Source: Lama guanicoe
Taxonomy: Eukaryota
DNA: 64,000 nucleotides
Direction: 5' to 3'
Assembly (NCBI GenBank): GCA_013239625.1
Contig: MU053557.1
Location: 3,874,123-3,938,122 of the forward strand
The translations under genes were made by a program, and so were the position numbers. Numbering within the stretch: the first letter of the stretch is position 1; the number at the start of each line of letters is the position of its first letter. A model generated the notes under the pieces. The model saw only the letters and a list, made by a program, of their open reading frames with translations. It did no database searches and was not told where the DNA came from. Shown piece after piece: positions 3,305 through 63,891 of the stretch.

Positions 3305-3353
3305 ATGGAGGCTTTCATTTTCCTTCCCTTCCTATTCTTAGCCATATTCTCAG
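3305..3353 (+). CDS. MARCOL: MARCO-like protein with C-terminal Kazal domain, coding exon 1 (signal peptide). CDS join(3305..3353,5188..5828,7518..7639,8610..8655), 285 aa
   Basis: caacATGG start; MEAFIFLPFLFLAIFS hydrophobic leader; phase-1 donor CAG|GTAAGA. Resembles the recalled N-terminus of human MARCOL. Confidence 0.85.
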
Positions 3354-5187
3354 GTAAGAAAATTTATTCAATGACTTTCCTTCCAACTCTCAAAGAATTA
3401 GAAATGTTGAGTGGTTTAGTAATATTCTGTCAGAAATGTTAAAACAGGAAGTCTCTATCAAAGAAATGAAAGAACGTCATTTGAGACAATGTAAATACAG
3501 ACGGAGGTATAATGATCGTGATCAGGTGGTACAACAGGGAATAGTTTGGTGTGGCTGAAGAGCAGCAGAGACAAAGGAATGGGGAAAGCAGGACATTAGA
3601 CAGGAAAGAAAATGCAGTCTAAAAGGATGATGAGAACAGACCCGGAATAAAGACAGTATGAGATTTGTGCCATACCCGAGTTTGTGTTCCTTAAAGGCTG
3701 CGGTTTTGTGTGATGATCCAGGGTCGTGTGGTCAAACAGAAATAGGTTCAAATCCTGGCTTTTCAATTTTCTACTTATGTGCTTTTGGGCAGCTTACTTA
3801 TTTTAACCTTAGTTTTCTCATATGCAAAATGAAAATAACTATACATTTCCACAGGTTATTATAGGAACTGTGTGTATGCTAACTCTATGACCATTACCTG
3901 AGTTCTTTGTAGGTGCCTCTGATTCAACTTAGTTCTATTTCTTACCTCAACACAGTTAGGTTTTCTATTTTCAGAGATGTGAATTTCCAGCTAATGATAC
4001 AAATTTCTCAAGATAATAAATGATACAGATAATAGATTTCTCAAGATGGTAAACTATGATACATGAAACTAATTCCAATTTATCTCCAAATTCTGACCTC
4101 CTACTTGAACAGCTTTTTTCTTACACGTACTGAAAGGAAATAATTAAAGTAAAGTGCCCACGACCTTCAGCTGCTCATAGTTGGAACACAAGAAATAGTG
4201 GTTCTCCTCTCATTGAAATCATTGCAGTTGTTTCAGATTGTTGAGTACAGAGGTGATCAGACCCACTCTCTTAAGGAATATTAGTCTGCAGCGATACTGA
4301 AAATGAATTAGACGTAAGAAAAGTCACACAGAAATGCCACTTAGGGAGCTGCTGAAGCAGTAGCATTAAGAAATAAGAATAAGTAGGGTGGGTAGAGCTC
4401 AGGGTAAAGCAAATGCCTAGCATGCATTATAAAAGGATGGGCTTCCAAAATAAACATAAGAAGTAGATAGAGTAGACAAGTTATGGAACGTATGTTTTAA
4501 GAAACAGTCACATAATATCTATTATGTCCTTGAGTAGTTTTCTCACAAAAGAGAGAAGCAAACACTGGAGAGTACGATTGACTGATTGATGCTAGGGCCT
4601 TTATGAGAAACGGTGGACATAAAATTGATTGGAAAAAAAAAGTAGGTTCTGAAGAAGAAGGGAAACCACTGCCTTTGGGACGGGGGAAGGAAAGAAGATG
4701 GCTACAGAAAGTGTGTATGGAGATATAGAAAGAACGTGGAAGGAGGGCTCATGCCTGGCAGCTTTCGTGTGTGGAAAGTTGATGGTGGCATCTTCTGTAA
4801 GGTGAGGCTGACAATGTGGGACAGGGTTCTGTGATGTGGTGAAAGTTCACAGTGGAAATTAAGCAGAGTCAGCTTGATTAATCAGTAAATCATTAATTAT
4901 TTGGGATAATATGAAAGCCCAGTTTAAATAATTCAGGCTCTGATTTAGAAATAGGGCAAGGTGGCTTAACCCCATTATTTTTAGAAGCCATGTAGTACAG
5001 TCAAGAAAAAAAAAGAGGACTCAAAATAATCAGGTTATGAGAGGTAATGGGAAGACTCCATCCTGAGGTTTGGTTAAAAAAAAATCAAAGAGGCATTAAA
5101 CACATACTATGTCTTGGGATAAATGCTATTGATTTAAAATTCTTGAAGTTAAATAACTTTATCTTTGTGCTTATGGTATCATTGCAG

Positions 5188-5828
5188 TATCTTCAGCCCA
5201 GCCACTGAAAACAAGTGTTTATAAACTAGAAGAGAGTGGAGAACCTGCACTTATTCTAGAAAGAAAAAATGAAGCTGCCCATCAAGGAGGTCAAATAGAA
5301 TCTAATAAGCAAAGAGGTAGCAACACACATGGAAAACCAGGGACATTTAGTCTACAAGGACAGCCAGGGCATTCTAACCAGCCAAAGAAACCAGGGAATT
5401 TTAATCAGCAAGGGAGGACAGGAGTTTTCAATCGGCCTGAGAGTTTGCAAGGGAATTCAGGACAACGTAACCAAAATGAGAATCCAGAAGTTACTAACGA
5501 GCAAGGAAAACCAGGATCTTCCAACCAGCAAGGGAAGCCAGGGTCAGCTAACCAGCAAGGGGGCCCAGGGTCAGCCGGCCAGCAAGGGGGCCCAGGGTCA
5601 GCCGGCCAGCAAGGGAAGCCAGGATCTTCTGGCCAGAAAGGGAAGCCAGGATCTTCTGGCCAGCAAGGGAAGCCAGGATCTTCTGGCCAGCAAGGGAAGC
5701 CAGGGTCACATAGCCAAAAAGGAAAGCCAGGATTATCTAGCCAACAAGGGAAATCAAGGTCTTTCTACAATCAAGAAGAAAGAAAAAATGGAGGCAACCC
5801 TTTGCATGGCAATATAATGGAGATTCAG
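5188..5828 (+). CDS. MARCOL: MARCOL-like exon 2 (G/Q/K/S/P-rich 9-mer repeat region)
   Basis: Acceptor ttgcAG|TA. Open frame VSSAQPLKTSVYKLEESGEPALILERKNEAAHQGG...GKPGSSGQQ repeats...GNIMEIQ, same frame as ORF 5445..5900. Phase-0 donor CAG|GTTAGT. Confidence 0.88.
5505..5747 (+). repeat. Coding 27-bp minisatellite, 9 units (G[KG]PG[SL]xxQ[QK])
   Basis: Units begin every 27 nt from 5505. Degenerate 9-aa units also occur at 5331-5438. Confidence 0.9.
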
Positions 5829-7517
5829 GTTAGTGTTAATTTCTGTTTTTTCCCTCAGGAAGCTTACCTCAGCCATTCTATATCCCAAGATTTGAAATAG
5901 TAGACTACACTATACTAATGACAAACACATTGTGATAACACTGATATAACAAAGAAGAAATTGCAGGTGGTATTTTTGTACACATTTATAATCATTAATG
6001 AGTGTCATGCTCTTCTATTCCATCTCATTCCCTTCTCTGTTTTCCACTCAGGCCTTTCTATCTATACTGGCCTAGCTCAGTCCCTCAATAATTGGGCCCC
6101 CATTCCCACCAGGTTTACCTTTCATGCCCATTTTCATCCCCTCCATAATGTACAAACCACTCAGGTGGTAGTTCTATGTCACAAATCTAATCTGGTTTAT
6201 CACTCCCCTGCTGAAAATTTTTCAGCATTGCCATACTACCCAGGAGTTAAAACCCAAACTCCTGAGCATGGCATTTAAGATTTTTCATGATTGGACCTCA
6301 TATCCATGACTGGACATGTCTGTATCCATTTCATATCACTCTTGCTCACATGCCATCCACAACATAATCTTTTGGTTTACCATGAATGTATTCCTAATAT
6401 TAATGATATCCTCTATCATAGAATGTACCTTACTGCTTTGTTACTGTCAATTCAATTAGAGGATGAACTCCTTAAAGTGTCATTTCTTTTCAAACCTGTA
6501 ACCCCAGATCCTAGAACAAGACGGGCATATGGTAGGTTCTCTTGATCCGTTTGTTGGATGAGTGAATGAATGCCTGACATTTGAGAGTCATCCTTGCACA
6601 CCGGTGCACATCCATGACTCCTGTATTCCCTTCTGAGTCCTGCTGTGCTTGACCTTTCTTTGCCAGGCTCTCTTTCAAGTGCCAGCTTCCTAATTCTGAT
6701 CAGCAGTTCTGGACACTCCATTTAGTTGACCCAAAATAGTTTTGGAGAACACTTCCTCCATGTCACCATCTTACTGGAGACTTTGCTTTTTACCTCATAA
6801 CTTGTCACTCCTCAATACCCTTCCTAATAAAAGCTGCCCACGCCTCCCTCCTTGTCCCTTGTGTCTTAGCTGGCATGAAGTAGTGATCTCCCGGGACATT
6901 CCTGCCATCCAGACCTGAATGCCACCACCAACAGGTTTCTGAGTGTTTAGATTGTTGCTTAAACTTTTTCAGTTTTATACTCTTTTCTAAAACGGGAGAG
7001 AGAACCCTGTCCATTTCACAGAGTGTGGGTACTATTTAATTGAACTCTGCATAATCCTACCTTCAGCCTCATTTTCTTTCATGGGACCAGAAAAGAGAAA
7101 GGGCCAATTAATTATGACCATATGTGTTTTGTCTTTTCCAGTATGACTTGCCCCTAATTGTTGTTTCCTCGGGTAGGGGAAAGCTTGTCTACAAAGAATT
7201 AAAGTGGAGGCAGTCTGACATGTAAGAACAGGGGCTTTGGAGTCAGATAACTCATGGTTTGAATCCCAGCTTGGGGAGTTAATCCACATACGGTTTTGGG
7301 TTTGTCACTTAAATGCACTGTATGCCTGAGACAATGCCAGGGGACAAAATATACTCTTCTTTCATATCGCTGCACAGATTAAAAGCTAAAGAGTCACAAA
7401 ATGATGCAGTACAATGCTTTATCAGTAGTTAATGAGCAATAAGTATTTGTTTTATTACAATATCAGAATTAAATTTAGTCCCCTGTATTTACCTAATGGT
7501 CTTTCCCATCACTGCAG

Positions 7518-7639
7518 ACTGGCAGTACTGGCAATAAGAACCCGACTGGAAACACAAAATGTCAATCTGTCTACGAACCAGTCTGTGGTTCTGATGGAAA
7601 AACCTATGGTAACCGCTGCGTATTTAACGAAGCAAAAAG
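7518..7639 (+). CDS. MARCOL: MARCOL-like exon 3, Kazal core
   Basis: Acceptor ctgcAG|ACT, phase 0. TGSTGNKNPTGNTKCQSVYEPVCGSDGKTYGNRCVFNEAK(R) contains the Kazal motif C-x7-C-GSDGKTY-x-N-x-C. Phase-2 donor AAG|GTAAGA. Confidence 0.85.
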
Positions 7640-8000
7640 GTAAGAGGACTTTATGTTTCTTTGTATTAGGAAGTACTATTCTGATGCAAAGGGAATGAAA
7701 GAACATTCTTCTCTAAGTCTCCATAGTTTCCTCTCAATAGTGCCTTGGGTGTCTGTCCAAAGGAAACATAAAAGCATATTTAACCCTTGAACAGTGAAGT
7801 CAGTCATTTCCTGAGAGACTGTGATATATTCAGCTTCATAAGGAGTGGTAAATTTATTGCTGAGTCATTCACTTACCAAATATTCATTAAACATCTACTT
7901 TGCACAGGCATTCCGCTAAGCACTAAGGTGGTGAGCCAAACACAGGCTTCCCTGCTTCCTGCTCCCATGCAGCTTCCATCTTTGCAGTGGAAGGCAGCAG

Positions 8001-8029
8001 AAAAAAAAAAAAAAAAAAAAAAAAAAAAA
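8001..8029 (+). repeat. Poly(A) tract
   Basis: 29 consecutive A in the last MARCOL intron. Confidence 0.9.
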
Positions 8030-8609
8030 CAGAGTATGAGAGAATTATGAATCCCAAGGATTACCAAGTGTAGACTACTCAATGACATTTTAAACTTAAA
8101 TAACAACATTAAATGTTGGATTTGTTAAGCCATGCAAACCATCGAGAGTTACACCCTGTCTAGAAGAAATAAAATGATGATAAGGCCATTCAAAATTAGA
8201 CATGTGGCTGAGAAAGAGCTGGATAGCTCAGCTTTCAAAATGAATAAATGTTTACCTACGAAAGAAGGAATAAGGTAAAAACTATACCCCTCTTGTTTTT
8301 GATAGTTTCAGAATTTATTAAGTGTTTGGTAAATCATTATTGCAGACTTAAGAAAATGTTAAAGGTAAGTGTCCTCTGTGGCCATAAAAGTTAAAGTCAG
8401 AAGGCACATCGGACACCCATTCTCTCATTTTATAGATAAGGCACCCTGCCCAGGGACAGGAAAGGACTGCCACAAAGTGCTCACGTGGAAACAGGCCAGC
8501 CAGGGCCCAGGCCTGCTCTTTCCCTTGTGATTTTTAAATAATCACATTTTCTCTCTGAGTGGTGCCACAATTCTTAGGTCCTTGATTTCTCTCATTATCT
8601 TGTTTTCAG

Positions 8610-8655
8610 GTTGAGTAAAGGAAAACTGAGTCTGAACCATGAGGGGAAATGCTAA
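8610..8655 (+). CDS. MARCOL: MARCOL-like exon 4, Kazal C-terminus
   Basis: Acceptor tgttttcAG|G; (R)LSKGKLSLNHEGKC*. The 46-nt coding length equals that of the other Kazal terminal exons here. Confidence 0.85.
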
Positions 8656-8812: not shown

Positions 8813-8818
8813 AATAAA
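8813..8818 (+). terminator. Polyadenylation signal of MARCOL-like gene
   Basis: AATAAA about 160 nt after the stop, followed by T-rich sequence. Confidence 0.65.
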
Positions 8819-9476
8819 GTCAGTTCCAGAGTTGCTTCCAATTTCTGAGACTGTTTATTTTCTATACTTTCTCAAACCTTGTGTCTATGATCCATCTGTT
8901 CCCAAAGCCCCAAAATGGCTAATACTTCAGACCAACAACTACAGCAGCAATTTGTAAATCCTAAGAAGTATAAAAATCTCAGGATTGCATGTAAAAAATA
9001 AAGATTCCTGACTCTACAAATATCAATGATGTAGGCCTCTAACAGAGCTAAAGAAACTGCAAGTTTAAACCACATTCCAGGTGTTTCTAATGAAGGTGGT
9101 CTCTGGCTACTTGATATAAAACTGATTAAAGATTTTTTAAGGATGCATTTATTGGCTTTAGAAGATCTATGGAAACACATGCAAAATAAATTCTCTGTGT
9201 ATTTTTTCCTTAAAAGAACGTTCAAAGCTTTCATTAGATTCTTAAAGGGATATATGAACAGAGATAGAGTTTAAAACTATTGATCCATAGGTACTGAAAT
9301 GTAGAAATTTATTTTATTTATCTGAAGTGGTATTTTAAGTCTGGCAGAGTCGAAAGCCAAAATGATTAGAAGGAATCTCACCAGGAGAGGAATCATTGGT
9401 AAGCAACACAGGGCTCAAGAATATGAACAAGACCCAAGATAATGTTGGGAGCAGAGCTGGTAAAATGGTTTTTATG

Positions 9477-22883: not shown

Positions 22884-22947
22884 ATGTCCCTCTTATCATG
22901 GATCAAAGTTATTTTCATCATTGCCTTGGCATTTCCTCTTTATTCTG
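22884..22947 (+). CDS. Kazal-type inhibitor, sperm-associated acrosin inhibitor-like paralog, coding exon 1. CDS join(22884..22947,23980..24017,25078..25184,26519..26564), 84 aa
   Basis: MSLLSWIKVIFIIALAFPLYS signal peptide; phase-1 donor CTG|GTAAGT. Confidence 0.85.
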
Positions 22948-23979
22948 GTAAGTCAGTTTTCTAGTCTGCGTGAAATGTTTCCCATATCTTAGAAAACGCA
23001 GGAAACAACTTCTGTAATCTAGGAATGAAGGAGCTTGTTTTTTATTGGGTTTGTAGACCATAAACTGATTAAGTGAAAAAAGGGCATGTTACAAATGCCT
23101 TTTTAACATTGCATCAGAGGATGCCTTTTCCTCGTTTCCCATTTTAGACAAGTGGAGATAGAGTAGTGGGTTAGAACTTTGCTCTTTGTTCATCAATGAC
23201 TAAAGAATATTACCTGATTATTTTTTTCTTTTTGATGGTCAGATTGTTAAATGCAAACTACGAAGAGGAATGATTTTTTTCTAGGTTTGGAATTGCTTCA
23301 TATTCTGATTTTTTGATCACCCATTCTGAGTCCCCTAAGACAAGGTTTTGTCTAAGGAGAGAACACATTGACACATCTGGCAAAGTGATCTCTCTCGAAG
23401 CTCAAGGTAGACCATGAATTTCAGAATAAGGCATCTGTGGGCTATAAGACAGACGCACACATTTAGATCACAGTTCTAACTCACCAAGTACTAATTGATT
23501 CCTTCATATTTAAGTGATATGCTCTAAAGCATTGTCTTATCTGTCTAGGATGTCTCATCTATAAAAATGGGAAGAAAAACAGTGACATCTTCAAAGAAGG
23601 ATGTTAGGGGTTTTAAAAACACATACAATTCATTTTCACAGAGTTAGAATAATTGGGAATTTAAAAATATTTCCAAATTTGATATTGTTTTGTGAATGTT
23701 TTGTTTTGCTAATGACATGAAGGGCTTGCCTCATTACTGGGGGGGGGTCTTGAGTAAGCAATTTGCATAGGTTTCTGCTACTAAGAAATAGCCGTATTTC
23801 CTAAAGATGATTCTTCTACCCCCTTTCCTCCTCTTCTCCCTCCTTTCTCCCCTTCCCCTCCTCCTCCTTCCGTGTCCTCCTCCTCTCTTTCTTCTTCTTC
23901 CTCTTCTTCTCCTCCCCCTGCCCCTCCCCCATCTTCTCTGCCTTCCTTTTTAACTTTTCCATCTATGTGTTGGTTGCAG

Positions 23980-24017
23980 AAACCTCTTTTGCATCTGTAT
24001 CAGAATTCAAACTTCCG
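23980..24017 (+). CDS. 84-aa SPINK gene micro-exon
   Basis: ttgcAG|AA; (E)TSFASVSEFKLP; 38 nt, phase 1 to 0; donor CCG|GTAAGT. Confidence 0.8.
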
Positions 24018-24079
24018 GTAAGTTAATCCTGATGGACGCTGAAAAAGCTAAACCACTTTTCTATATTATATATTTTGTT

Positions 24080-24205
24080 TTGAGGGGGGAGGTAATTAGG
24101 ATTATTTATTTACTTATTTATTTTAATGGATGTACAGGGGATTGAACCCAGGACCTCATGCATGCTAAGCATGTGCTCTACCACTGAGCTATACCCTTCC
24201 CCTCT
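24080..24205 (-). mobile_element. tRNA-derived SINE (Vic-1-like)
   Basis: Same core sequence as the other copies. Confidence 0.8.
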
Positions 24206-25077
24206 ATAGTATACATTTTAATAGCAAAATTCATAAAAAATGTACAACAGAGAGGTCTTTCAAAAAACAAAAAGTGTTAGTATTACATTAAAGTCAAAAA
24301 AATAGAAACTTAGTCATGTAAAGCCATTTGTCATTATCTAGACAACATAAAAATGTGCATATCCCATTACACAAAAATTTAATGAATGGGCATAAGTGTT
24401 GTGTCATACAAGCATCTGAGACACAGTGGAGGGTGTTTACAGTAGAAGTGTTCATCTCAGCAAAACAAAAGAAAACAGAATCTATCTAAATCTACATGTA
24501 AGGGTGGATAATATAATAATTTCTATATACCCACATAGTATAATATTACATAAAGGTGAAAAGTTAAACTACAGTTCTAAATTCCTGAATAAACATAGTC
24601 ACAAAGAATTTTCAAAAGCAGATGAGGTAAACGTACACAAAGTATTGTTTATGTCAATTACCAGTACTGTCAACATTAAACAAATTGCACTTATAGCTGC
24701 ATATATGTATGCACACACACAGACTTAGTGAAATTATCAAGACAGGGAATGAGAAATAGAAAAATTCCATTTCATGATTTCTTCTTGAGTTTGGAAGGAG
24801 AAAAATCTAAACGGAAGTGAAGATGGTGGTCACTAAATTACAATAACATGTTCTGTGATCTCTTTAAAAAATTACAGCAGGTTTATAAAAACATTGGTAA
24901 AATTTTATTTTTTAAGTGGGATTTCTGTTTTATAAATTTTAGTGTTAGTGTTTAAAACTACTTATAGACTGTATTTTTCTAATCTTGATGTCTGGCCCTT
25001 CATATTAAGATTAAGCAAAATTTTACTGAAACTTTCATTCCCTGAGAAAGTTTATATTGTCTCTCTGTGTTTAACAG

Positions 25078-25184
25078 CCAGACTGTAAACTATATACAGG
25101 AGTTTGCACCAGCGAATATGTTCCACTCTGTGCAACCAACGCAAAAACTTATGACAATGACTGTCTGTTTTGTCATGAAAAGAT
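25078..25184 (+). CDS. 84-aa SPINK gene Kazal core exon
   Basis: ttaacAG| PDCKLYTGVCTSEYVPLCATNAKTYDNDCLFCHEK carrying C1-C5; phase-2 donor AT|GTAATA (weak). Confidence 0.85.
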
Positions 25185-26518
25185 GTAATAAGCACACAGT
25201 ATAAGTATTTGGTCCTCCAAGGTATGAAGAAATCATCACAAAGTGATAGGAAAATCCTTGTTGCTGATAACCAAGGCTCAACATACATAGAAAATTACTA
25301 AGACCTCTGTAAAAAATTAGAGGCCACTCTTGTTCCTTTCCCTGAAGTTCTTGTTTCTGAAAGTAATTTTGTATTTGAGCTCTCATTATAACTTTGTTTG
25401 ATATTGTACAAACGTGTACATCAATTAATTTCACCTAATTATGTGTCACTAATGGCAGGCTAGCAACCAACACAATGTAATTCTGTAGCCCAGATGCAGA
25501 ATCACAGCTCTCTATGGTGGCCGTGTAATTGACCCATGCAGACTTCTAGCTGAAGGAAACTAAAACCAAGGCCATTCATGCTAAAAAGGGACTCCTCTAA
25601 TGGTCAGCTTTGTCTCACAAAATCCATGACAGCCTCCAAATCTACATTGGACAGCAGGACATTGTGGAGTACCTCCATCTAATCTCATTTCCTGTCTCTT
25701 TCATCCTGAAGGAATGTGCAGTTTAAAGCTTCAGCCAGTCTTCCTACCTCCCTCCTTATTCTCTCTCATATGTGTTTCATCTCACAAAATCTTTGCACAT
25801 TTAATCCCTTAAATTGGCATCTGTTTCTGGAGAACTGCTGAGACCATCTCCAATCTCTCCACTCTCAGATCTGGGTGGGTCCTAAGACTGAGACAGGACT
25901 GAGCATGTAGGAAGAGTCAAGTGACCCCACAAGGGGACAGGACATGTGTCAGACCCTAGGAACAAGCAGAGTCCAGCTGCTTCTGGAAGTGGAGCACAGC
26001 CTCTCCATGCTATTCCACGTTCACATTCTCCTTTTTGAAAAGGTTTCCAGTGTCTCTGTGTTTAGACACTGAAAAATCCCAACTATATTCTGCATGCATG
26101 TTATCTACATTTTTGCATCATAGAAATGAGTTCAGTCTGTGCAATGGATGGTCAGACTTAAGGCAATGAATGTAGTTTCCTCTGTGATAGAATCCTGGGA
26201 GTTTAAAATTCTCCTTTTTAAAAATAGTATTTTTATTTCAGAATAATTTAAGATTTACAGAAAAATTTCAAAGATAGTAGCAAGTTTTTGTGTCTTTTAT
26301 CCAGTTTCTTCTAAGGTTAACACCATGTACAACCCTGGCACACTTGTCAAAACTAAAAAATTAACATTGGTATGTCACTATTAATGAACCAACAGAATTG
26401 TTTGGAGTTGACCAGTTTTTCCATGAATGTCCTTTGTAATATTTCTTTAAATGTAATGTACTTTATTTCTTCCTTAAAACTCTTTAATTTTTTTCTCTGT
26501 CTCTTTCTTTCTTTATAG

Positions 26519-26564
26519 AGAAAACAATGCCAACATTGATTTTCACCATTTTGGTGTATGTTGA
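26519..26564 (+). CDS. 84-aa SPINK gene terminal exon
   Basis: Long pyrimidine tract then tAG|A; (I)ENNANIDFHHFGVC*; C5-x17-C6 spacing. Confidence 0.85.
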
Positions 26565-31760: not shown

Positions 31761-34589
31761 TGGCTCTCAGTGCAGACTCCGAGGGCTTTACTCATCCCTA
31801 TGTGCACTGGGGAACTCTGCTCTGGGGAAGATGCTCTTGAAGCTTATCTCACAGGCTGGCTGATCCTCTAACCAGGCTTTGAGTCTTTTCTGACCCTCAG
31901 TTCCCTCTGCAGGCGTCCCTCTTGCCTCCTATCCCACCTGTGGAACAGGAGGACTGACACTCCGCGGCCTGCTTGCTGGGCCTACAGTGTCTCTACCGGT
32001 GCTTCTCCAGCTGTGACAGTCCTCCTGCTGAATTTCATTTCCCTGAGGTTTCTTTCTCTAGTATTGTCTTCCTTCTTATCTCGCTCCCTGTTCTGGAGCA
32101 CCCAGAGCTCACTGATCCAATCTCTGAAAGCCATGATATTTTGAACCAATCTCCACAGGAAGGAAAACTGTGTTTTTTTCTATTGCTAGATTCACACTGG
32201 AGTGTCTAGGAGATTCTATCTTTAAATAAGACATAATTGAATACTTTATTGTGATCAAGAGAGGGCATGAAACTCCAGCCTAATTCAAAGTTAAGAGAAT
32301 AACAGAATTTCTGAAATTTAGTTCCAAGTACGATGTTTACAGTACAGATCTGCTTTATACTGTTTCATTCTACCTGTAGTCACTTTGTCTTTCCTGGGTG
32401 GTTTGTGATTATGCATGAATAAAAAAAAAGTGTGAAGAAAAGCTAAAAGACATATGCCATGCAGATAGAAATGAAAAAATATTTTTGTAATGAATATATT
32501 ATCTTAACGTAATTAAAGAAAAGCCAAACATTGTCTTGAGGTGAAATAATTCATCCATGACTACTGTTGTTAACAGCTTAATTAAATTTCATTCATTTAA
32601 CTAATTTGGATGTTGTGTTGATAAATGAGAATAATTATAAAGATAGCCCCACAACAAAATTCTTCAGAAATGGTGATTCCTTTACACTGATACAGATTTT
32701 GTGCCAAGTTCTTTAAGTGGGTTTGAGTTAATGGCAGCACTGGCTATCCTAGAATGGTTAAATGAGGCATTAATATTGAAGAGAAGCATTAGTATAAAGA
32801 CAAAGATACAAACTTTGTTTCTTACCCAACTTCACTGCAAAAAGCACATGCATTGTCGTATGTGTTGCCATCTGGTCCACAGACAGGAAAGTATTCATTC
32901 ACGCAAGTCATCACTGTATCTTCAAACTTGTCACAGACAGGCTGTAAAGTCAGAGACATTTGAAGATAGATGACAGTAACCACAACATGAATAGCATCTG
33001 CCACACACGGTGAACATACTGATGTACAAAACTTAGTCCTTTCCTGATTTAATATTTGAATTTTCAATTTGAGTTCTAATTTGAATAGTGTAATTTTAAT
33101 ATCAGAATACCTCTTGGCACATATAAAGGGCTCTGGGAATACTCTGAGTAAATAAATGAAAGTAGCTAGACCACAAGTTCTATTCATGTCTCTTTATTTT
33201 CTTTTCCACTAATCTATCCTGAGCTACTATTGCCTCTTGCAGGACAATTACAGTATCTAAGTGGTCTGAATACAGCCACTTTTAATTGCTCCCACAAGTT
33301 TGTACTGAATCCCTGCATCTTTGCTAAAAACACTGCCCATTTTTTCCTAGGATCAACATGCAAAGCCTTGACTGCCTATGAAACTAAATATCCATGGCTC
33401 TCATCTTGCCCCGTACTTTCCCAGCACATATGTAACACATCACTTCCCATTACACACTTCCTCCAACAACCCAGCTCTAGCCCAATCTTGCTATGTCCTG
33501 CTTCTGATCAAAAATATGGCATCGTGCTGTTGGAGAAAATAGCATATACAATCATATATTCTGATGCTATAAAAATTCCAAGTTTTCATTGTTAACCATC
33601 TGAATGAGAGTTTACAGGATGTATTTCCAAACTTGTTGACATTCCAAAGAATACCTGTGCAGCCAGAGCATAGATTAATAACAACTACAACAATAATAAT
33701 GATTCATTTTTTGACAAGTAATCATCTAAAATAGGATAAAGAATATTATTCTTTGTAAGAAAAATATGATATATATATTTGTGGTAATGTCTGTCACCTG
33801 AACTAGATATTAATATGCAAGAAAAATTCAAAAATTACATCTCAATCAATATACATTCATTTATGTCTGCTGTGAATCTGACTACATTTCACACACTCTT
33901 ATGTAGTAGTTTAACTCTAACAACAACTCTGTCAAAAGCAGGTAATCTCCTCACTTTGTAGATGAGAACATAGAAATATAGTAAGAGCATGAACTTACAC
34001 GAAGGCATTCAGTATATTCAAGGAGTAGAACCTGTAATCAAATTCCTTATATATAAGCCCAATATGCTTTAAAAGCGCTCCCTGCATCATCCATTGATGA
34101 GCATGAGCAGCAGCAAGAAAAATTATCATCAGGATCATCAGTAAGGTCCCTATTCATAGTTGGCCCAATAGTTGACAACTGCTGAATGATTCAAAGTTTT
34201 CCACTGACTAAGAAAAATTACTCACCAGGAAAAACGGAAAATGACAAAATGAAGAAAGAAACAGATCTTATCATTTGAAAGAAAGCCATTTTGTCTTCTA
34301 GTGAACTGGCAATGAGGCTCTGGGAAAGGAAATGAGTAGAGAGTAGTTTGAAAAGACACAAATCCTTGTGTTGGTTGATCAGTGGACAGTGAAGGAGAGG
34401 CGTCGAGGCTACTTTCATGAAGGAGCCTTACCTCAAAGGAGTATCTCTGCTAATTTAACCATCTCTACACTCCCAGTTAGAAGAGTCCCTCCCTTTGGTT
34501 CAGTCTCCATGAACACTTCAGGAAGAATAAAAATACTCTATTTTTATTACTATTCTATTACTATTTCTATTATTATTATTATTAAATAT

Positions 34590-61872: not shown

Positions 61873-61918
61873 TCAGCACTCACCATAATGACTAAAATCG
61901 AATTTTCCACTATTTTCG
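61873..61918 (-). CDS. Sperm-associated acrosin inhibitor-like Kazal protein, terminal exon
   Basis: tttcttcctttacAG|C; (L)ENSGKFDFSHYGEC*. Confidence 0.88.
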
Positions 61919-62800
61919 CTGTAAAGGAAGAAAAATAAATTATATTGTAAAAATAGGAAAATCACCTGATCTTGCACTGAGTGCTTCTCGGGGAGGAGCA
62001 CCTGCACGTGAGGCAGTGAGGAGAGGCTGTGCTCCATTCCAGGAGCAGCAGGGCCCCTCGGAGCCCCCCACCCTGCCCAGGTCCTCCTGACCAGGGGCTC
62101 CTCGACTCCTCCTGACTCAGCCTTGGAGCCCACCCAGGCCAGAGAGAAGATGGATTTCCCATTGTTTGAGTTGCTCTCTGTTAGAGAAGCCACTTTGGGG
62201 ATTAACTGAGAGGAAACACCTATGTGAGAAAATGAGGTAGGAAGTAGCCAGGCTGGCTGAGCCTGGGACTTGCAGGCTCCCTCCTGGGGAGGGGACAGGA
62301 AGGGAGGTGGGGTGATGTGTCCTGAATGCCATGGAGTTCAGGAGACCAAGTGGACCATCAGAGGAGTTTCTTCCTGGCAGGAAGTGCTCAATCTGAGGGA
62401 TTTAAATTTCTGTAGTCAGGCTGGTTTCTTGCTCAGTCCTGCTCCCTGTAGCTCGGCGCTACACTGTGGAGATTATCATTCAGTGTCTGGACTTCTGAAT
62501 TACATTCTATTGGTCACCAGACTGCCGTTAGTAAGTCATAATAATTAAATTAAGTTAAATTGATTCCTGCTTTTGCAGAATATCCTGGAGGGATATGTTG
62601 AGAGGTGAAATCAAAAGTACTTTTAGAAACGAGAACTTCAGGGAAAGGTACAGGTGTGTTTTCTGTGGCTTTTACAGAGAGAGCACAGTTATTTCCCATT
62701 TACACTGTGTCTAGACTATCGGAAGCATGGGTGTTCCTCTCATTTTGTGGTGGTTTCTTCATTATTTTGGAAGAGTCAGTATTTAGTCTTGTGTTCTTAC

Positions 62801-62916
62801 AGCTTTTCACTGCAGAAAACGCATCTGTTGGAATAAGTTTGGCCATTGGTTGCACAGACTGGATCCATTTCTCTGGTGCAATAATGTAATTGATCCACAT
62901 ACACATCACAGTTTGG
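62801..62916 (-). CDS. Sperm-associated acrosin inhibitor-like Kazal core exon
   Basis: ttaatAG| PNCDVYVDQLHYCTREMDPVCATNGQTYSNRCVFCSEK, donor CT|GTAAGA. Closely resembles the recalled pig sperm-associated acrosin inhibitor (CTREMDP.C.TNG..Y.N.C.FCSEKL). Confidence 0.9.
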
Positions 62917-63853
62917 CTATTAAAGAGACAACAAAATTTTTCAGATAATGAATTTTTGGAATAAAATGTTCTTTGTTCTTAATACAGTATGCTATGCATC
63001 AAAATGGAATGTATCCCTACATTGAGGTTTAAAAATAAACATCAAGGTACTTACATAATGCTTAGGAAAAAATTATTGATATATTTTTACAACTCCAATG
63101 TTATTTTTTTATAGAAATGGCTGAATGCTCTTTTATAATTTAGCCTCTCTGCCCCTACTTCTCCTCATATCTGGGTCAGATTTTCCCCATTATCTCAGAA
63201 GAAATCATAACCCTGAATTGGTTATAATTCCCCTGTCTCATTAGTTCCACTAGTAGATAAACTGATAGTTTCCGATTATCACCACATATGTATGTATTCA
63301 TATATGTGAGTATGTGTGTTTATAACCATGGACATATATATGGAATTTGTTTAGTGATGGCAGTAATTGCACACATAATTGTGTGTATTCTTATGTGGCC
63401 TGCTCTTTAAATGTCTTTTGATACCACTATCTATTTAGATGTTTATAACTGAAGGTGGTACTCTTCACCTCCATATTTCAGTCTGTGAGTATATGAAAAC
63501 TATTATATTTTATTCGTGTATGAAGAAATTAGCTTTTTTAAACCCTCTTGTTTTGCTAGGATAAGCAAATCTACTTTAAACCCCCTTTAACAAATCTTTT
63601 CGGATGCTTGTCTAAAACAAAGTTTATGCCCAATAATAAACTTTTGAATAATGGGATTTTTTACCTTGTCTGAAATGACAAATGGTTGTATATGGCTGCA
63701 AGATTCCATTTCTAGAACTTAGTATAATAATACTTTTTTTCTTACTTTTTGAAGGATTATTCTGTTGTATATTTGATAAAATTTGCTGTTAAAACTTAAA
63801 AAAAATTTAAAGTTTACCTTTTTCAATTTCCAAATTAATCAGTATAAACTTAC

Positions 63854-63891
63854 CTTTTCACGTGTGTCTGCTGAAGGTGCAAAACCAGTTT
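63854..63891 (-). CDS. Sperm-associated acrosin inhibitor-like micro-exon (signal exon lies beyond the window)
   Basis: ggctgcAG|AA; (E)TGFAPSADTREK; 38 nt; donor AAG|GTAAGT. Confidence 0.85.

What the first reader, a model, noticed from the sequence alone, without database searches (positions are those of the whole stretch)
3305..8655. MARCOL here is a SPINK-architecture gene: secreted Q/K-rich repeat anchor fused to a Kazal domain (trappin-like design)
Seen: four exons with canonical splice sites join in frame (phases 1, 0, 2) into 285 aa comprising signal peptide, about 215 aa of G/Q/K/S/P-rich sequence and a Kazal domain. Phases and the 46-nt terminal exon match the neighbouring SPINK genes, so exon 2 occupies the place of their 38-41-nt micro-exon but is 641 nt long. 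Established: trappins (elafin) pair a Gln/Lys transglutaminase-substrate repeat with a WAP inhibitor domain to tether it to matrix. Inference: this may be a convergent Kazal-based tethered inhibitor or matrix protein. As I recall it, human MARCOL is described only as a repeat protein without a Kazal domain; this needs checking.
Basis: partly seen in the sequence, partly recalled or inferred. Interest (0 to 1): 0.85.

Follow-up and report, generated by a model that had tools for sequence, protein, structure and literature searches.

The report
Ancient mammalian repeat-tailed Kazal inhibitor gene
This mammalian gene (MARCOL) has an open four-exon frame predicted to make a secreted protein in which a long Gln/Lys/Gly-rich repeat precedes a protease-inhibitor (Kazal) domain missing one of its three disulfides; databases already list this build in many mammals, a likely platypus counterpart suggests it is very old, and the repeat likely tethers the inhibitor in tissue, which was not tested here.

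Summary
Four GT-AG exons (phases 1, 0, 2; last exon 46 nt) give an open 285-aa frame: signal peptide, 27-nt repeats, Kazal domain. A neighbouring SPINK-type gene has the same layout with a 38-nt exon 2. The fusion is not new to databases: 21 of 37 homologues found carry repeat plus Kazal core, most named MARCO-like, and this scan noted it before in another genome. I found no paper describing it.

The Kazal domain lacks cysteines 1 and 5, whereas published two-disulfide Kazals lack 3 and 6; an orthologue's domain still models as a Kazal fold. P1 is small (Ser in 24 of 27 sequences). A 127-aa platypus protein has the same four-cysteine domain (62% identical; paralogues 25-45%), P1 Ala and a short Q/P/G/K spacer.

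Best reading: a secreted inhibitor of elastase-like proteases, likely tethered by its repeat. Inhibition and cross-linking are untested, no RNA run showed the splice joints, and the human gene could not be checked. Transglutaminase cross-linking of a Kazal inhibitor is already reported for SPINK6. A collagen helix is unlikely.

The parts
3305..3353 (+). Coding exon 1: hydrophobic signal-peptide-like sequence, phase-1 donor
   Evidence: 75-88% identical to exon 1 of beaver and reindeer orthologues. Signal peptide judged by eye, no predictor run
5188..5828 (+). Exon 2 (641 nt): cationic G/Q/S/P/K/N spacer in the place of the SPINK micro-exon; phase-0 donor CAG|gttagt
   Evidence: single copy in G000; predicted disordered in the reindeer orthologue (pLDDT mostly below 50)
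5500..5752 (+). Tandem array of 27-nt units (nonamer G-K-P-G-S-S-[S/G/N]-Q-Q), 9.4 copies; weaker 27-nt period in the 5' part of the exon
5559..5711 (+). Run of 17 uninterrupted Gly-X-Y triplets (source of the Pfam Collagen hit); not conserved in most orthologues
7518..7639 (+). Exon 3: Kazal core with C2 (7560), C3 (7584) and C4 (7617); no C1 and Asn at the C5 site; reactive loop C-Q-S-V-Y with P1 Ser247 at 7566-7568
8610..8655 (+). Exon 4 coding part (46 nt): last Kazal strand, C6 and stop
8813..8818 (+). AATAAA, candidate polyadenylation signal

Best explanation
The locus is an open, single-copy SPINK-architecture gene (MARCOL) whose exon 2 is swollen by 27-nt repeats; it is predicted to make a secreted protein whose two-disulfide Kazal head likely inhibits an elastase-like protease and whose Gln/Lys-rich tail likely fixes it to matrix or cornified surfaces by transglutaminase cross-links. 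Shown: frame, splice signals, SPINK exon layout, repeat, four cysteines, conservation. Modelled: Kazal fold with a disordered tail. Inferred: splicing, secretion, target class (from small P1, Ser or Ala), tethering. The build likely arose once in early mammals by loss of the C1-C5 pair and growth of exon 2, with further repeat gain and loss in placentals.
For: Gene layout equals that of a neighbouring SPINK-type gene. 21 of 37 homologues have repeat plus Kazal core; 11 of 37 end in the terminal-exon Cys, one of them a mis-joined model without the repeat. Both partners of one disulfide (C1, C5) are missing in 27 of 27 Kazal sequences, while C2 and C3 are kept in 27 and C4 in 26. The marmot orthologue models at pLDDT above 90 over about residues 71-108 and matches ovomucoid third domains (Foldseek prob 1.0, target TM 0.74-0.83). 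Loop-supporting residues P2' aromatic (27 of 27), P14' Gly (26 of 27) and P15' Asn (27 of 27) are kept. The best-scoring turkey ovomucoid P1 variants were Ser18 for the window and Ala18 for platypus, fixing the P1 register. The platypus loop CPAIF nearly equals CPAIY of ShSPI, a measured elastase-selective two-disulfide Kazal (PMC6950245). The tail offers repeated QQ and K in a flexible chain, copy number varies freely, and net charge is positive in 24 of 24 spacers; this parallels trappin TGS repeats (PMC2831891).
Against: No activity data. Loss of C1-C5 differs from the tested atypical Kazals, which lose C3-C6 (PMC1236909), so their retained activity does not carry over. P1 is Pro in sheep and serow, and one deer model has Tyr for C4. 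P18' is hydrophobic, whereas Glu there is essential in ShSPI (PMC6950245). P1 is conserved, although Kazal contact residues are described as hypervariable (PMC6950245). The repeat lacks the trappin hexamer; Q-x-K is only modestly enriched (7 against a shuffle mean of 2.6, p 0.007), which the repeat itself explains. The tissue of expression is unknown. Orthologue models are predictions whose RNA support I could not see.
Confidence: 0.35

Rival explanations
1. The Kazal domain is a conserved binding module, not an inhibitor, and the protein is a structural or gel-forming secretory protein cross-linked through its repeat.
For: Very high conservation of the helix face F-x-E-A-K (F and A 27 of 27, E and K 26 of 27) and of K-N-P upstream of C2, which are not reactive-loop positions; P1 Pro in two caprines; loss of a disulfide. 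Non-inhibitor Kazal domains (agrin, follistatin) are among the sequence hits.
Against: Loop-supporting residues and the C2-C3 spacing are canonical, small P1 is kept from platypus to placentals, and the nearest solved folds are true inhibitors.
Confidence: 0.25
2. The head is an inhibitor but the tail works without cross-links, as a cationic, disordered segment that binds polyanions or microbes, or simply spaces the head (crustin-like design).
For: Net positive charge in 24 of 24 spacers (+1 to +19), predicted pI 9.9 for the window protein; vole orthologues have K/P-rich, Q-poorer tails. Trappin's cementoin domain is itself reported antimicrobial (PMC2958999, abstract start).
Against: Charge density is low (about +12 over 212 aa), and the QQ pair persists in most units across orders (that profile was partly selected for Q by my pattern).
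Confidence: 0.2
3. The repeat forms a collagen triple helix, giving a trimeric stalk with three Kazal heads, like a defence collagen; this is what the name MARCO-like implies.
For: Pfam Collagen hit at 37.9 bits; 17 uninterrupted Gly-X-Y triplets here, with Pro in the Y position of GKP and GGP; runs of 14 in serow and 11 in polar bear.
Against: 23 of 26 sequences have runs of only 2-5 triplets because every third Gly position is usually Ser or Asn. Imino content of the run is 18%. One contig end from a close relative fits loss of three units of this run.
Confidence: 0.07
4. The Kazal exons are seldom or never spliced to exon 2; the real product is a repeat-only protein ending in intron 2.
For: The exon-2 donor has T at +3 (gttagt) and the frame reads on for 24 codons to a stop at 5898-5900. 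Rabbit and hamster models end this way.
Against: Exons 3 and 4 are the most conserved part of the gene (62% to platypus), phases fit, and no separate signal exon was seen in intron 2 (by eye). Models of 11 of 37 homologues reach the last Cys.
Confidence: 0.08

Closest known systems
MARCOL / MARCO-like protein gene models (RefSeq, UniRef)
   Same: This is the orthologue: exon 2 is 52-79% identical over its first 110 aa to the 15 hits, and most named models also carry Pfam Kazal.
   Different: Nothing structural beyond repeat number. I found no paper on its protein, domain build or function; two papers list human MARCOL only as a table row.
Classical single-domain SPINK inhibitors (SPINK1, SPINK6, SPINK7; ovomucoid third domain)
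   Same: Four coding exons with phases 1, 0, 2 and a 46-nt last exon; Kazal fold; same cluster.
   Different: Exon 2 is 641 nt, not about 38; C1-C5 disulfide absent; P1 is Ser. SPINK6 is reported to be cross-linked by transglutaminase without a long repeat (PMC8873584).
Trappin-2 / elafin (TGS repeat plus WAP domain)
   Same: Signal peptide, Gln/Lys repeat of variable copy number, C-terminal disulfide-rich inhibitor domain; small P1 (elafin Ala, recalled).
   Different: Unrelated fold; hexamer KGQDPV against nonamer GKPGSSSQQ; TGS and WAP share one exon (PMC2831891), here repeat and inhibitor lie on separate exons; trappin is called eutherian-specific, while MARCOL has a likely monotreme member; cross-linking is proven only for trappin.
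Atypical two-disulfide Kazal domains (LEKTI domains, EPI1a, ShSPI)
   Same: Four cysteines; ShSPI has a near-identical loop to the platypus protein and inhibits elastase.
   Different: They lack C3 and C6 (PMC1236909, PMC6950245); MARCOL lacks C1 and C5.

Membership tests
SPINK / Kazal (classical) | Kazal sequence motif and fold | tested here: met
   Pfam Kazal_1 39.4 bits; marmot orthologue model matches ovomucoid third domains
SPINK / Kazal (classical) | Four-exon layout, phases 1, 0, 2, 46-nt last exon, location in the SPINK cluster | tested here: met
SPINK / Kazal (classical) | Six cysteines paired 1-5, 2-4, 3-6 | tested here: not met
   Four Cys; C1 and C5 absent in 27 of 27 sequences
SPINK / Kazal (classical) | Serine-protease inhibition through the P1 loop | not testable with these tools
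   P1 Ser 24, Pro 2, Ala 1 of 27; needs an assay
Atypical Kazal (LEKTI type) | Loss of C3 and C6 | tested here: not met
   C3 and C6 are kept; C1 and C5 are lost (definition in PMC1236909)
Trappin | C-terminal WAP domain | tested here: not met
   Pfam scan of exons 2 and 3 gave only Collagen and Kazal
Trappin | KGQDPV-type TGS repeats | tested here: not met
   No KGQ, GQD or DPV in 26 of 27 sequences
Trappin | Transglutaminase cross-linking to matrix | not testable with these tools
   Composition is compatible only
Collagen-domain proteins (MARCO, collectins) | Long conserved uninterrupted Gly-X-Y run | tested here: not met
   17 triplets here but 2-5 in 23 of 26 sequences
Collagen-domain proteins (MARCO, collectins) | Trimer formation | not tested
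MARCOL orthology of platypus LOC100076155 | Groups with MARCOL against paralogues | tested here: met
   Support 99/98, 99/99, 93/94 without long branches, 80/89 with C1 and C5 columns left out; outgroups were almost all from the window's own genome
MARCOL orthology of platypus LOC100076155 | Synteny and exon phases | not tested
   No platypus DNA was on hand

The most novel reading that the evidence does not exclude
MARCOL is a pan-mammalian, so far uncharacterised elastase-type inhibitor with a third kind of Kazal domain (C1-C5 lost) that evolved a transglutaminase anchor independently of, and earlier than, the trappins; if the human gene truly lacks the Kazal exons (recalled, untested), humans have lost the inhibitor head of an ancient barrier protein.
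Probability: 0.25. Interest if true: 0.65.

Novelty: new variant of a known kind. Interest (0 to 1): 0.42.

Why it matters
If it works as proposed, mammals have a second, convergent tethered protease inhibitor beside trappin-2/elafin, mis-named as a collagen-like protein in a cluster central to skin and mucosal protease control. It would also show that a Kazal domain can stay active without the C1-C5 disulfide. The domain is 55 residues long, so both claims are cheap to test. As it stands the architecture is already in automatic annotations; the advance is interpretation, the disulfide pattern and the likely monotreme member.

Tried and rejected
RNA: 8 of the 24 listed runs were laid. None showed a joint at a splice site. 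X1 and X3 contigs ran through introns and exons at flat depth (DNA or unspliced RNA of a relative about 97% alike); X9 and X13 covered mostly intron pieces; X10-X12 were patchy; X19 laid no read (about 1 in 100 of the run was read). This is no test of splicing either way. Full-length fold of the reindeer orthologue with 15 sequences failed (mean pLDDT 41); the shorter marmot query worked. The trimer prediction could not be run (tool not available), nor could the deep representative search, so marsupials, afrotherians, primates and reptiles remain unsearched beyond three word-index searches, which returned none by name. The Atlas feature search with exon 2 gave no usable hit. No second copy of exon 2 or exon 3 in G000 and no paralogous DNA for the gene in 244 kb, so the donor paralogue is unresolved; the tree does not pick one. 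Paper searches found nothing on the MARCOL protein; most hits were a mineral oil or a surname. Collagen helix rejected as a family-wide feature. Trappin homology rejected.
Full report
Observation. Exon 3 scores 39.4 bits on Pfam Kazal_1 and exon 2 scores 37.9 bits on Collagen. Exon 2 holds 9.4 copies of a 27-nt unit, and its 5' part keeps a weaker 27-nt period (0.44 identity at lag 27, 0.39 at lag 54, 0.33 or less at other lags), so much of the exon likely grew by repeat duplication. Exons 2 and 3 are single-copy in G000.

Surroundings. I read 120 kb upstream and 60 kb downstream. The region is a Kazal-gene cluster with a multi-domain gene far upstream and at least nine other single Kazal exons; names such as SPINK5, SPINK6 or SPINK7 for them are my recall. 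The neighbour at 22884-26564 has exons of 64, 38, 107 and 46 nt with phases 1, 0, 2, and five neighbours have an AG 46 nt before the stop.

Conservation. A search with the start of exon 2 gave 15 hits, 7 with Pfam Kazal. A profile search gave 37 hits: 22 have the Kazal core, 21 of them behind the repeat, in ruminants, horse, carnivores, bats, hedgehog and four rodents; 11 end in the last-exon Cys. Of the 15 without Kazal, 7 were flagged by pattern as reading through the exon-2 donor into the intron, and at least 3 more do so by eye, including the rabbit model. The ESM Atlas holds a MARCO-like cluster of 94 members, 98% with Kazal_1. The fusion is thus already in automatic annotation. In contigs of a close relative, the 14 exon-2 substitutions shown fall in 13 codons, 7 silent and 6 not, none a stop; the 12 indels shown are all intronic; 92 substitution rows and 6 indel rows were not shown. 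One contig end fits an in-frame loss of 81 nt, three units.

The Kazal domain. It has four cysteines. Against paralogues, C1 and C5 are missing, the two partners of one disulfide (pattern in PMC8873584). This holds in 27 of 27 sequences, some of them near-copies; C4 is Tyr in one deer model. Published atypical Kazals lack C3 and C6 instead (PMC1236909, PMC6950245); my one search on two-disulfide Kazals showed no 1-5-less vertebrate case in its listing, which is weak evidence of absence. The marmot orthologue modelled with 37 residues at pLDDT 90 or more and matched ovomucoid third domains; the window's own spliced protein was not folded. P1 is Ser in 24, Pro in 2 (sheep, serow) and Ala in 1 of 27; P2' is aromatic and P15' is Asn in all 27, P14' is Gly in 26.

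Platypus. A search for short relatives of the Kazal domain gave 9 hits, among them platypus LOC100076155 (XP_028905646.1): 127 aa, with a signal-like start, a spacer of about 52 aa rich in Q, P, G and K, and the same four-cysteine domain. It is 62% identical to the window's domain over 55 positions; paralogues reach 25-45%. It groups with placental MARCOL at 99/98, 99/99 without two rows, 93/94 without five long branches, and only 80/89 when the columns before C2 and the C5 column are dropped. In that last core it is 65-72% identical to MARCOL orthologues and 36-63% to paralogues. No platypus paralogues were in the tree and synteny was not checked, so orthology is likely, not shown. Its spacer does not align to placental exon 2 beyond the last stretch. 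If orthologous, cysteine loss and a lengthened spacer predate the monotreme-therian split (about 180 million years, recalled).

Mechanism. A small P1 points to proteases with a shallow S1 pocket (established knowledge, recalled). The platypus loop CPAIF nearly equals CPAIY of ShSPI, which inhibits neutrophil and pancreatic elastase but not trypsin, chymotrypsin, thrombin or kallikrein (PMC6950245, sections 2.3, 2.7, 2.8). Against this, ShSPI needs Glu at P18', where MARCOL is hydrophobic, and caprines have P1 Pro. The tail is predicted disordered, is net positive in 24 of 24 spacers and spans 139-289 aa in placentals. Its unit, G-K-P-G-S-S-[S/G/N]-Q-Q, offers both Gln and Lys, as trappin's KGQDPV does (PMC2831891), but shares no motif with it, and no strict consensus marks transglutaminase substrates (PMC13073648). 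I put inhibitor activity near 0.55, cross-linking near 0.45 and both together at 0.35. The collagen reading fails as a family trait: 17 triplets here, 14 and 11 in two species, 2-5 in 23 of 26.

RNA. Eight runs were laid and none showed a splice joint, but none looked like spliced mRNA of this gene either. Splicing and tissue remain open.

Known work. Six searches on MARCOL or the SPINK cluster found no paper on the protein; 'MARCO-like' with 'Kazal' gave 0. Two papers list human MARCOL as a table row (PMC11667162, PMC6557731; passages seen); in a third the word was a surname. A review says SPINK6 is cross-linked by transglutaminase, also to fibronectin, and stays inhibitory (PMC8873584, passages; the primary paper was seen only as a reference). 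I saw passages of PMC2831891, PMC1236909 and PMC11476513, passages and two sections of PMC6950245, passages and one section of PMC13073648, and only the listing and abstract start of PMC2958999. No supplements were read, and subscription journals are mostly outside the library, so a description of this gene may exist there.

Verdict. The gene is real and conserved, a variant of the SPINK kind and not a trappin. Its build is already in databases. What this work adds is the C1-C5 loss, the conserved small P1 and the likely platypus member. Interest 0.42.

Noticed in passing
window 26114-26197 (+): A degenerate Kazal-like exon with an in-frame stop lies in intron 3 of the SPINK-type gene at 22884-26564.
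   Followed up: partly
window 22884-26564 (+), 32825-32944 (-), 61873-63891 (-): Three further SPINK-type genes or exons; the first translates to an intact 85-aa six-cysteine Kazal protein. No clear last exon was found for the 32.8-kb one.
   Followed up: partly
proteins P0025 and P0035: Kangaroo-rat and an unnamed carnivore-like model join a six-cysteine Kazal exon in front of MARCOL exons; no close match to that exon was found in the 244 kb read here, so that gene may be lost in this lineage.
   Followed up: partly
proteins P0018, P0019, P0042: Sheep and serow MARCOL have Pro at P1; a Cervus hanglu model has Tyr in place of the fourth Kazal cysteine. Possible relaxed constraint in some ruminants.
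   Followed up: no
window 8814: Contigs of a relative (X10, X12) read G here, changing the first AATAAA; a second AATAAA lies at 8997.
   Followed up: no
window 7024-7028: Three runs of the relative carry 233 extra letters here, likely a retroposon insertion absent from the window.
   Followed up: no
proteins P0009, P0016-P0020, P0022-P0025, P0030: Many public MARCO-like models miss the 46-nt last exon and run into unrelated sequence; P0026 is joined to a serine-protease gene, likely a model error.
   Followed up: no
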